In this document: positions 8,370 through 8,869 of the stretch, one piece after another
How positions within the stretch are numbered: the first letter of the stretch is position 1
How the letters are laid out: each line of letters starts with the position of its first letter
NCBI RefSeq assembly: GCF_024700885.2
Contig: NZ_CP117016.1
Source of the DNA: Escherichia coli
GTDB taxonomy: Bacteria > Pseudomonadota > Gammaproteobacteria > Enterobacterales > Enterobacteriaceae
Direction: 5' to 3' (one strand)
DNA: 64,000 bases
Made by a program: the position numbers and the translations under genes
Notes under the pieces: generated by a model
The model's database searches: none
Told to the model about the DNA's origin: nothing
The model's input: only the letters and a program-made list of their open reading frames with translations

Positions 8370-8381
8370 GTGACATGTCAC
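8370..8381. repeat. 12-bp perfect palindrome GTGACATGTCAC (copy 1)
   Basis: Identical 12-mer also at 28555-28566. Confidence 0.8.
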
Positions 8382-8674
8382 GTTCCTTTTCTGAATGATA
8401 GCCATTCGAAAAATGATGACATTCCACCGCAGACAATAGCAAAGATGATCCCACCAAAGAAGAGAAGGCCAGCCTGCCACCACTCCCACCGCCATACATC
8501 CACAGCGCCAACCATACCAACAATCGCTCCAACAAATGGAATATAGCTCACGATGAAAGCGATGGGGGCTGCAATTATCCAGTGCAATCCCCACCATGAT
8601 TCAAGCCCAGCCATAATTGCTGCCAACTGAAAAAGACCAACGACGATATAAACAATGAATCCTATAGCTTGCAT
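8378..8674 (-). CDS. small integral membrane protein (98 aa), moron between ejection proteins and tailspike
   Basis: Three hydrophobic helices, Trp-rich; AGGTGA Shine-Dalgarno; preceded by a further ~50-codon hydrophobic ORF without ATG start (about 8700-8850). Confidence 0.55.
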   Translation of the reverse strand: MQAIGFIVYIVVGLFQLAAIMAGLESWWGLHWIIAAPIAFIVSYIPFVGAIVGMVGAVDVWRWEWWQAGLLFFGGIIFAIVCGGMSSFFEWLSFRKGT

Positions 8675-8869
8675 GTAGTCACCTATTTACCCAGTAAAAA
8701 TAAGAGGCCTCCCCTCAATAAGGCTTGCAACAAGAACTACTCCCTGCACAACAAAGATGAACCAGCAAATAGCTTGAGTCTGAGGGTTAAGAAAATATTT
8801 GTAGCGGTCAATAAATAACAATCCACCAGAAATTATCACACTCAAAATAATTAAAAACACAACACTTCC

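What the first reader, a model, noticed from the sequence alone, without database searches (positions are those of the whole stretch)
8378..8869. Small membrane-protein genes inserted between the ejection-protein genes and the tailspike
A 98-aa protein with three hydrophobic helices (8378-8674) is preceded on the same strand by a further ~50-codon hydrophobic ORF lacking an ATG start (roughly 8700-8850). They occupy a gap in the virion operon where T7-like phages have none and end in their own terminator. Small membrane morons in this position are often superinfection-exclusion or abortive-infection factors; that role is inference.
Basis: inference. Interest (0 to 1): 0.4.

Follow-up and report, generated by a model that had tools for sequence, protein, structure and literature searches.

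The report
Swappable small membrane-protein cassette in prophage
Two real genes for tiny inner-membrane proteins form an optional, exchangeable cargo cassette at the end of the DNA-ejection-protein operon of an epsilon15/phiV10-like E. coli prophage; their function is unknown, and blocking DNA entry by rival phages is only the leading guess.

Summary
Both ORFs exist as described and are real genes. ORF-A (8378-8674, minus strand, 98 aa) is a full-length member of PHROG 3075, of unknown function. ORF-B (8687-8860, minus strand, 57 aa) starts at GTG behind a good Shine-Dalgarno site.

- **Selection:** against a Klebsiella phage, dN/dS is 0.023 for ORF-A and 0.17 for ORF-B.
- **Phage type:** this is an epsilon15/phiV10-like Uetakevirus prophage, not a T7-like phage. 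The upstream 824-aa gene is the homologue of T7 gp16.
- **Terminator:** it is not the cassette's own. It is the shared late-operon terminator, preceded by a genus-wide 12-bp palindrome.
- **Cargo slot:** among 80 phages with near-identical upstream genes, about 38 carry ORF-B+ORF-A. About 28 carry phiV10p21 (46 aa, 2 TM), and 8 carry a small TM ORF plus a lipoprotein.
- **Independent modules:** elsewhere ORF-B pairs with that lipoprotein, and ORF-A occurs without ORF-B.
- **ORF-A family:** large (748 cluster representatives), absent from Pfam, NCBIfam and PADLOC. The AF2 model is confident (pLDDT 90) but has no significant fold match.
- **Not SieA, not a holin:** there is no similarity to P22 SieA, and the holin match falls below threshold.
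- **Expression:** no convincing private promoter, so expression is probably late.

"Moron" is supported. Superinfection exclusion remains inference. Interest is modest.

The parts
8378..8674 (-). ORF-A: 98-aa small membrane protein. Member of PHROG 3075; RefSeq WP_001147904.1 in a strain with an identical cassette.
   Evidence: ORF list and sequence. PHROG 3075 E = 1.6e-54 over residues 1-98. dN/dS 0.023 against the Klebsiella phage. AF2 pLDDT 90.4. PGAP annotates it.
8687..8860 (-). ORF-B: 57-aa protein with two TM helices and a GTG start. It occupies the same position as phiV10p21 and epsilon15 gp18.
   Evidence: dN/dS 0.17, against 1.2-1.9 in the other frames. 13 homologous clusters of 56-58 aa. 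Not annotated by PGAP.
8865..8871 (-). Shine-Dalgarno AAGGAAG for ORF-B. It overlaps the TAA stop (8870-8872) of the 824-aa gene.
   Evidence: Read directly from the sequence.
8679..8684 (-). Shine-Dalgarno AGGTGA for ORF-A, 4 nt before its ATG.
   Evidence: Read directly from the sequence. Conserved in Klebsiella phage BUCT711.
8792..8821 (-). Candidate weak sigma-70 promoter inside ORF-B: TTGTTA, 18-nt spacer, TATTTT. If active it would transcribe ORF-A alone. Unproven.
   Evidence: My PWM scan puts it at the 99.988th percentile of the minus strand. It falls below the threshold of the tool scan. In the Klebsiella phage the -10 element is TATTTC, so the key final T is lost.
8370..8381 (.). 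12-bp perfect palindrome GTGACATGTCAC. It contains the TGA stop of ORF-A and forms the right-hand boundary of the cargo slot.
   Evidence: The same palindrome sits at the equivalent site in phiV10 and epsilon15.
8343..8369 (-). Rho-independent terminator of the late (ejection-protein) transcription unit: GGCCGCTTTCGCGGCC plus a T-run. It is shared by all cassette types.
8870..11344 (-). Upstream anchor gene: 824-aa internal virion (ejection) protein. It is the homologue of phiV10p20 and epsilon15 gp17, that is T7 gp16 / IVP-D.
   Evidence: PHROG 684, virion structural protein. 27% identity to epsilon15 gp17 with E = 2e-108. The assignment of gp17 as IVP-D comes from PMC4819975.

Best explanation
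**Shown**
- ORF-B and ORF-A are two independent, real genes for small inner-membrane proteins.
- Together they fill an exchangeable cargo slot at the 3' end of the late operon that encodes the internal virion (ejection) proteins of an epsilon15/phiV10-like prophage.
- The slot runs from the stop codon of the T7-gp16-like 824-aa gene to a conserved palindrome plus terminator.
- The genes are not needed to build the virion. Phages with identical ejection proteins carry other small envelope proteins there instead.

**Inferred**
- Tight translational coupling and the lack of a good promoter suggest both genes are transcribed mainly with the late operon.
- Charge distribution suggests ORF-A sits in the inner membrane with N- and C-termini in the cytoplasm. 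Two acidic, tryptophan-rich turns would face the periplasm, with a glycine-zipper helix-kink-helix dipping into the membrane between them.

**Most likely role (inference, about one in three)**
- ORF-A acts as an envelope-level exclusion factor. Like P22 SieA, it would interfere with assembly or function of the trans-envelope DNA conduit built by incoming podovirus ejection proteins.
- This would protect the infected or lysogenic cell from related phages.
For: - **Real genes:**
- **Slot polymorphism:** 80 loci have a near-identical 824-aa C-terminus. About 38 carry ORF-B+ORF-A, about 28 carry phiV10p21, and 8 carry a small TM ORF plus a lipoprotein with an LLVGC lipobox.
- **Independent modules:** ORF-B pairs with the lipoprotein in Salmonella and Citrobacter prophages. 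ORF-A occurs alone, 1 nt after the 849-aa homologue, in Cronobacter.
- **Recurrent position:** ORF-A lies between the ejection genes and the antirepressor/tailspike region in four diverged lineages: E. coli/Klebsiella, Cronobacter, Salmonella and Yersinia.
- **Parallel with P22:** this mirrors the P22 order gene 16, sieA, immI, tailspike. SieA is a 3-TM inner-membrane protein that targets the ejection proteins (PMC10883804).
- **Mobile-element cargo:** distant relatives lie next to integrases or on plasmid-like contigs.
- **Envelope location:** every alternative cargo is a membrane protein or lipoprotein, the usual make-up of known exclusion proteins (my own knowledge: T4 Imm, T5 Llp, Cor, HK97 gp15).
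- **Topology:** in 155 family members, K+R per protein is 0.63 in the N-tail, 0.14 in loop 1, 0.37 in loop 2 and 2.25 in the C-tail. A natural tandem-repeat protein joins units by K/R-rich linkers.
Against: - No homology to any known exclusion or defence protein: PADLOC gives nothing and SieA hhalign gives probability 0.25%.
- No conserved private promoter. The genes are co-directional and coupled with late genes, whereas sieA has its own promoter on the opposite strand. Expression in lysogens is therefore not supported by the sequence.
- ORF-A is under very strong purifying selection (dN/dS 0.023). It stays 52-61% identical where the adjacent ejection protein has fallen to 24-27%. Arms-race exclusion genes such as SieA, whose types are under 30% identical, behave the opposite way.
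- The family also contains apparently chromosomal proteins fused to DUF805, RDD or MORN domains. This suggests a generic membrane module rather than a phage-specific weapon.
Confidence: 0.35

Rival explanations
1. ORF-A is a late-expressed protein that permeabilises the membrane or tunes lysis timing. It would act like a holin, antiholin or viroporin, oligomerising through its glycine zipper to alter inner-membrane permeability or proton-motive force late in infection.
For: - It is co-transcribed with late genes.
- It is about 100 aa, very hydrophobic and has a basic C-terminus.
- It carries an invariant motif P46..G49...G53..G56-A57.
- There is a weak Pfam match to Phage_holin_5_2 (E = 0.027).
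- Potassium-channel pore domains recur among the weak, non-significant fold hits.
Against: - The holin match scores 15.2 bits against a cut-off of 29.2.
- The phage has a complete lysis cassette elsewhere: Phage_holin_8 protein, GH19 endolysin and DUF2514 spanin-like protein at 1666-3484.
- The gene is dispensable and is replaced by unrelated cargo in sister phages.
- The domain occurs in tandem and fused in cellular proteins, which does not fit a lethal holin.
- There is no TxGYG-type selectivity filter.
Confidence: 0.2
2. The proteins are lysogenic-conversion factors that benefit the host cell independently of phages, for example through envelope stress tolerance, ion homeostasis or serum and colonisation fitness. 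They would be expressed at a low level from the prophage.
For: - The ORF-A family reaches well beyond phages, with 748 cluster representatives including chromosomal fusions.
- It is under strong purifying selection.
- There is a candidate weak promoter inside ORF-B.
- The cassette is present in 204 of 5426 complete E. coli genomes.
- A phiv142-3 prophage carrying this cassette improves APEC fitness, but through other ORFs (PMC7724020).
Against: - The candidate promoter is not conserved in the Klebsiella phage.
- The phiv142-3 study did not list this ORF among its significantly up-regulated genes.
- The position at the end of a repressed late operon is poor for expression in lysogens.
Confidence: 0.15
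3. The proteins are accessory factors for the phage's own ejection apparatus or virion assembly. For example, they could be membrane chaperones or anchors for the 824-aa IVP-D protein before packaging, or small ejected proteins that help form the inner-membrane channel.
For: - They are immediately adjacent to, and translationally coupled with, the IVP-D gene in several lineages.
- A small 2-TM ORF follows IVP-D in epsilon15, phiV10 and this phage.
Against: - Phages with 96-100% identical IVP-D C-termini carry different, non-homologous proteins in the slot, so there is no co-variation.
- ORF-A is absent from phiV10 and epsilon15, which are fully infective.
- ORF-A also occurs far from any ejection gene, near integrases and on plasmid-like contigs.
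Confidence: 0.1
4. ORF-B is not a functional gene. It would be a chance open frame in the spacer between the ejection gene and ORF-A.
For: - It has a non-ATG start and is not annotated by PGAP.
- It has no PHROG or Pfam hit.
- Within E. coli, its polymorphisms are 3 synonymous to 9 non-synonymous with no third-position bias.
- A poor-quality assembly shows indels in it.
Against: - dN/dS is 0.17 against the Klebsiella phage, with 1.2-1.9 in the other frames.
- The frame is intact at 56-58 aa and 67-98% identity across five genera.
- It has a good Shine-Dalgarno site at correct spacing in E. coli, Klebsiella and Salmonella copies.
- It keeps its place when the downstream partner changes.
Confidence: 0.07

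Closest known systems
P22 SieA (superinfection exclusion A; Leavitt et al. 2024, PMC10883804)
   Same: - Both are small, helical inner-membrane proteins of a temperate podovirus.
- Both genes lie directly after the last ejection-protein gene and beside the antirepressor region and tailspike.
- Both are accessory genes that vary between related phages.
   Different: - There is no sequence or profile similarity.
- ORF-A lacks the motif FxRYPxEAxxFNK.
- ORF-A is 98 aa; SieA is 162-164 aa.
- ORF-A is on the same strand as the late genes with no clear promoter; sieA is on the opposite strand with PsieA.
- ORF-A is highly conserved; the SieA types are under 30% identical to each other.
- No phenotype is known for ORF-A.
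phiV10p21 (46 aa) and epsilon15 gp18 (64 aa), 'putative integral membrane proteins'
   Same: They occupy the same slot: they start within about 10 nt of the gp17/p20 stop and end at the palindrome plus terminator. Like ORF-B, they have two predicted TM helices.
   Different: - They belong to different PHROGs (7892 and 29212), and ORF-B matches none. No homology is detectable.
- Those phages have no ORF-A.
- Their function is likewise unknown.
PHROG 3075 (phage protein family of unknown function)
   Same: ORF-A matches the whole 98-position profile at E = 1.6e-54. It is a plain member.
   Different: Nothing differs at the sequence level. The family is uncharacterised. This work adds that it belongs to a much larger family, not limited to phages, that is absent from Pfam, NCBIfam and PADLOC.
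Class I holins (such as lambda S) and Pfam Phage_holin_5_2
   Same: They are similar in size, in hydrophobicity and in having a basic C-terminus. Both are expressed late.
   Different: - The Pfam match is below threshold.
- ORF-A is not in the lysis cassette, which is complete elsewhere.
- The charge distribution favours N-in/C-in rather than the N-out/C-in, 3-TM topology of holins.
Potassium-channel pore domain (M1, pore helix, M2), including small viral Kcv-type channels
   Same: The inferred layout is the same: TM helix, re-entrant helical segment, TM helix, in about 95 aa. Such domains recur among the top weak structural hits.
   Different: - There is no selectivity-filter motif.
- An artificial linked-trimer AF2 model gave no confident oligomer.

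Membership tests
PHROG 3075 | Significant full-length match to the family profile. | tested here: met
   E = 1.6e-54, 183.7 bits, residues 1-98 against profile positions 1-98 of 98.
P22 SieA family | Sequence or profile similarity, including the conserved cytoplasmic motif FxRYPxEAxxFNK. | tested here: not met
   hhalign of the ORF-A family alignment against P22 SieA gives probability 0.25% over 8 aligned columns. The motif is absent from ORF-A and ORF-B. The motif is described in PMC10883804.
P22 SieA family | Integral inner-membrane protein with about three TM helices. | tested here: inconclusive
   Three hydrophobic stretches and four helices in the AF2 model. This is prediction only, and the charge distribution favours a different topology.
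P22 SieA family | Expressed from the prophage through its own promoter. | tested here: inconclusive
   No site reaches 9 of 12 consensus matches upstream. One weak candidate lies inside ORF-B but is not conserved in the Klebsiella phage. No expression data were found.
P22 SieA family | Blocks DNA injection by related phages. | not testable with these tools
   This needs phage challenge and DNA-entry or K+-efflux assays.
Phage holins (Pfam Phage_holin_5_2 / Hol44) | Score above the Pfam gathering threshold. | tested here: not met
   15.2 bits against a cut-off of 29.2, E = 0.027.
Phage holins (functional class) | Gene lies in the lysis cassette next to the endolysin and spanin genes. | tested here: not met
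   The lysis cassette lies at 1666-3484 on the minus strand, beyond the tailspike gene: Phage_holin_8 protein, GH19 endolysin and DUF2514 (compare).
Known anti-phage defence systems (PADLOC-DB v2) | Match to any defence-protein model. | tested here: not met
   No family at E <= 1 for ORF-A, ORF-B or the neighbouring plus-strand ORF.
Moron / optional cargo gene of a temperate phage | Present or absent, or replaced by unrelated genes, between otherwise near-identical phages at a fixed site. | tested here: met
   Three alternative cassettes among 80 loci whose upstream gene is 96-100% identical. Further module combinations appear.
Moron / optional cargo gene of a temperate phage | Own promoter and terminator, allowing expression from the repressed prophage. 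| tested here: inconclusive
   A terminator is present, but it is the shared late-operon terminator. The promoter is not convincing.
Potassium-channel pore-domain fold | Significant structural match and a selectivity-filter motif (TxGYG/TVGFG). | tested here: not met
   [not shown]

The most novel reading that the evidence does not exclude
ORF-A would represent a large, undescribed family of about 95-aa membrane domains: TM helix, re-entrant glycine-zipper helix-kink-helix, TM helix, with two Trp-rich periplasmic turns. It would assemble into an oligomeric pore or a docking site in the inner membrane. Phages and plasmids would carry it, repeatedly beside T7-gp16-type ejection genes, to control passage of DNA or ions through the inner membrane. 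On this reading it is a new class of viroporin-like or entry-gating protein, not a SieA analogue.
Probability: 0.12. Interest if true: 0.65.

Novelty: new member of a known kind. Interest (0 to 1): 0.35.

Why it matters
If ORF-A or ORF-B blocks DNA entry, this would be a second, unrelated example of a podovirus exclusion protein encoded beside the ejection genes it targets. P22 SieA is the first. It would give a handle on how T7-gp16-type conduits cross the inner membrane.

The cassette sits in about 4% of complete E. coli genomes, so it could affect phage-therapy host range for O-antigen-specific podoviruses.

Separately, ORF-A opens up a large family missing from Pfam (748 clusters at 50% identity) with a confident predicted fold and no known function. 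As it stands, however, this is an ordinary pair of hypothetical prophage genes with a plausible but untested role.

Tried and rejected
1. **Family databases.** Pfam, NCBIfam and PADLOC scans of both ORFs gave nothing usable. The only hit was a sub-threshold holin match.
3. **Profile comparison with P22 SieA.** No relationship.
4. **Stop-codon read-through fusion of ORF-B and ORF-A.** They share a frame in the window (TAA plus 4 codons). I rejected a fusion because 5 of 37 related cassettes, and phage phiv142-3, have a 1-nt insertion in the spacer that breaks the shared frame. The longer ORF12 annotation in phiv142-3 comes from that insertion.
5. **Internal terminator-like hairpin at 8701-8717, inside the 3' end of ORF-B.** It is not conserved in the Klebsiella phage, so I do not consider it functional.
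6. **AF2 of three ORF-A copies joined by linkers.** This was prompted by a natural tandem-repeat relative, P0060. It gave pLDDT 49 and pTM 0.31, which is uninformative.
7. **Rfam scan of 7700-9100.** Only chance-level hits.
8. **Literature.** There are no papers on WP_001147904 and no Uetakevirus lysogen transcriptome. The phiv142-3 study does not report this ORF.
9. **Base composition.** ORF-A (46.5% GC) is not compositionally foreign to the late operon. ORF-B is lower at 36.8%. This is weak evidence either way.
10. **Plasmid survey.** Only 7 plasmid records carry ORF-A, and the two E. coli records are about 41 kb, the size of a Uetakevirus genome. There is no link to conjugation functions.

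Full report
**1. What is in the sequence**

On the minus strand, the 824-aa gene (8870-11344) ends in TAA. That stop overlaps AAGGAAG, the Shine-Dalgarno site of a GTG-initiated 57-codon ORF, ORF-B (8687-8860). Four codons after the ORF-B stop, and behind AGGTGA, the ATG of a 98-codon ORF, ORF-A (8378-8674), follows.

The TGA of ORF-A lies inside a perfect 12-bp palindrome, GTGACATGTCAC (8370-8381). A strong intrinsic terminator abuts it at 8352-8369 plus a T-run.

**2. Are they genes?**

ORF-A matches PHROG 3075 over its whole length (E = 1.6e-54). It is annotated in RefSeq as WP_001147904.1.

| Comparison with Klebsiella phage vB_KpnP_BUCT711 (80-82% nucleotide identity) | Synonymous | Non-synonymous | dN/dS |
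|---|---|---|---|
| ORF-A | 44 | 8 | 0.023 |
| ORF-B | 18 | 15 | 0.17 |
| ORF-B, two alternative frames | – | – | 1.2 and 1.9 |

ORF-B has intact homologues of 56-58 aa at 67-98% identity in E. coli, Citrobacter, Klebsiella, Salmonella and Enterobacter. PGAP does not annotate it.

Within E. coli alone, ORF-B shows no coding signal: 3 synonymous against 9 non-synonymous polymorphisms. The sample is small. I conclude both are real genes, ORF-A beyond doubt and ORF-B very probably.

**3. What phage is this, and what is the 'gap'?**

The region is 98-99% identical to Uetakevirus phages phiv142-3, HEMP4 and YDC107_2. It is organised like phiV10 and epsilon15.

The 824-aa protein is the counterpart of phiV10p20 and epsilon15 gp17 (27% identity, E = 2e-108). 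Hardies et al. identify epsilon15 gp17 as the homologue of T7 internal virion protein D, gp16 (PMC4819975).

'Ejection-protein genes' is therefore right, but the phage is epsilon15-like, not T7-like. Its relatives do have a small membrane ORF in this slot:
- phiV10p21: 46 aa, two TM helices, annotated 'putative integral membrane protein'.
- epsilon15 gp18: 64 aa, two hydrophobic helices.

The tailspike (4819-7893) is a separate transcription unit. It lies beyond a plus-strand gp19-like gene whose true start is probably 8089.

The terminator is conserved base for base in phiV10, where the slot holds a different gene. It is the late-unit terminator, not a private one.

**4. The slot is a cargo site**

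I fetched 80 IMG/VR loci whose 824-aa C-terminus is 96-100% identical to the window. I classified the DNA between its stop codon and the palindrome.

| Cassette | Length | Approx. loci (of 80) |
|---|---|---|
| ORF-B + ORF-A | 500-501 nt | 38 |
| phiV10p21 | 168-169 nt | 28 |
| Small TM ORF (apparently frameshifted) + ~126-aa lipoprotein (lipobox LLVGC, PHROG 3716, unknown function) | 608 nt | 8 |

The modules also recombine:
- In Salmonella Muenchen and Citrobacter freundii prophages, ORF-B is followed by the lipoprotein rather than ORF-A.
- In Cronobacter prophages, an ORF-A homologue (61% identical) starts 1 nt after the 849-aa gene, with no ORF-B.

ORF-A and ORF-B are thus independent, optional modules. 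Identical ejection proteins coexist with all cassette types, so a dedicated structural or assembly role is unlikely.

The ORF-B+ORF-A cassette occurs in 204 of 5426 complete E. coli genomes.

**5. ORF-A beyond this phage**

Close homologues (48-93% identity) occur in Klebsiella, Dickeya, Cronobacter, Kosakonia, Yersinia and Salmonella.

ORF-A sits between the ejection genes and the antirepressor/tailspike region in four diverged podovirus lineages. This holds even though the adjacent gp16-like proteins are only 24-27% identical. In Yersinia an opposite-strand gene separates it from them.

More distant members lie next to an integrase at a prophage end, or on plasmid-like contigs with SSB, RepL, Replicase or ProQ genes.

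An exhaustive profile search found 748 cluster representatives at E <= 1e-3, of which 325 were at E <= 1e-10. They include:
- proteins fused to DUF805, RDD or MORN domains;
- a protein with three tandem units;
- a chromosomal Lentisphaeria example.

No Pfam, NCBIfam or PADLOC model covers the family.

**6. Structure and topology**

AF2 on a 28-sequence alignment gives pLDDT 90.4 and pTM 0.72, with helices 2-28, 32-42, 46-59 and 65-97.

Invariant residues are Gly, Ala, Pro, Trp and Gln: G13, Q16, A19, G29, P46, G49, G53, G56, A57, W63, A68 and L71-F72-F73. They form a glycine zipper and two Trp-rich turns. There are no catalytic-looking residues.

Across 155 family members, positive charge concentrates in the two tails:

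| Region | K+R per protein | D+E per protein |
|---|---|---|
| N-tail | 0.63 | 0.25 |
| Loop 1 | 0.14 | 0.82 |
| Loop 2 | 0.37 | 0.81 |
| C-tail | 2.25 | 0.85 |

The tandem-repeat relative joins its units with K/R-rich linkers. This favours both termini in the cytoplasm, both Trp-rich loops in the periplasm, and a re-entrant central helix-kink-helix. That is an inference from the positive-inside rule.

Fold searches found nothing significant. Potassium-channel pore domains recur among the weak hits, which I treat only as a lead. An artificial linked trimer gave an uninformative model.

**7. Expression**

No sigma-70-like site with 9 or more of 12 consensus matches lies upstream on the minus strand.

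My PWM scan finds one candidate inside ORF-B: TTGTTA, 18-nt spacer, TATTTT, at 8821-8792, in the 99.988th percentile. Its -10 element is TATTTC in the Klebsiella phage, and hydrophobic AT-rich coding sequence often mimics promoters.

The cassette begins 9 nt after the upstream stop, so it carries no upstream promoter of its own. The sequence therefore points to late, operon-coupled expression. Expression in lysogens is unproven, and I found no published data.

**8. Function**

I commit to envelope-level exclusion as the most likely role, at roughly one chance in three.

Evidence for:
- The slot holds only small membrane proteins or lipoproteins, varying between otherwise identical phages.
- ORF-A recurs beside gp16-type ejection genes and on other mobile elements.
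- The position copies P22 sieA. [quoted passage not shown]

Evidence against:
- There is no homology to SieA or to any defence model.
- Expression is coupled to the late operon.
- Conservation is unusually strong.
- The domain is also used in cellular proteins.

Rivals:

| Rival explanation | Estimated probability |
|---|---|
| Late membrane-permeability or lysis-timing protein | 0.2 |
| Phage-independent host-fitness factor | 0.15 |
| Helper of the phage's own ejection or assembly | 0.1 |

The holin assignment fails its membership tests. The match is sub-threshold, and a complete lysis cassette lies at 1666-3484.

**9. Verdict**

The 'moron' reading is supported by comparative data. The exclusion or abortive-infection role stays an untested inference with real counter-evidence.

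This is a new, better-described member of a known kind: small membrane cargo genes of temperate phages. Interest is modest.

The most unexpected thing seen was outside the finding. The 12-bp palindrome marks all three terminator-associated punctuation points of the late transcription unit across the genus.

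Noticed in passing
window 8370-8381 and 28555-28566 (degenerate copy 25838-25849); L100 (epsilon15) 2142-2153, 19517-19528, 39612-39623; L099 (phiV10) 2262-2273, 19493-19504: A perfect 12-bp palindrome, GTGACATGTCAC, is conserved across the genus. It marks the same three points of the late transcription unit: the end of the gp49/p55-like regulator gene just before TerS, just after TerL, and the end of the ejection-gene operon. It always lies within about 35 nt of a rho-independent terminator and often contains the TGA stop of the preceding gene. It is exact in epsilon15 even though the flanking proteins are only about 27% identical. None of 100 shuffles reached three hits. 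It may be a site for a regulator, antitermination or RNA processing, or a recombination boundary for cargo exchange. Its function is unknown.
   Followed up: partly
L022 (and 7 identical IMG/VR loci), about 600 nt after the 824-aa gene stop; L103 4418-4804; L105 4279-4659: An alternative cargo in the same slot is a ~126-aa lipoprotein (signal peptide plus lipobox LLVGC, C-terminus ...WRGNNCVA, PHROG 3716, unknown function). In E. coli it follows a small TM ORF that appears split by a frameshift at an A5 run. In Salmonella and Citrobacter it follows an ORF-B homologue.
   Followed up: partly
window 7966-8346 (+): The 126-codon plus-strand ORF converging on the terminator is probably an 85-aa gene starting at 8089. 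It is the homologue of phiV10p24 / epsilon15 gp19 (PHROG 450) and resembles the C-terminal part of antirepressors. The PHROG match begins at residue 42 of the long ORF.
   Followed up: partly
window 4819-7893 (-) and 3644-4768 (+): The 1024-aa tailspike has an epsilon15-type N-terminal adaptor and a C-terminal Peptidase_S74 intramolecular chaperone domain. The tailspike gene is unusually AT-rich (39% GC, GC3 28%). The 374-aa plus-strand ORF next to it has only a weak hexapeptide-transferase hit and may be an O-antigen-modifying gene, like phiV10 oac.
   Followed up: no
L102 5539-5982 (-) (Yersinia kristensenii prophage): A low-GC gene for a ~145-aa protein with a signal peptide lies on the opposite strand, between the ejection-protein gene and the ORF-A homologue. 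This shows the region accepts further morons and that ORF-A there cannot simply be translationally coupled to the ejection gene.
   Followed up: no
P0060 (427 aa, metagenomic protein): This is a natural protein with three tandem ORF-A-like units joined by short K/R-rich linkers. It is useful evidence that each unit starts and ends on the same (cytoplasmic) side, and it hints that single-domain members oligomerise.
   Followed up: partly
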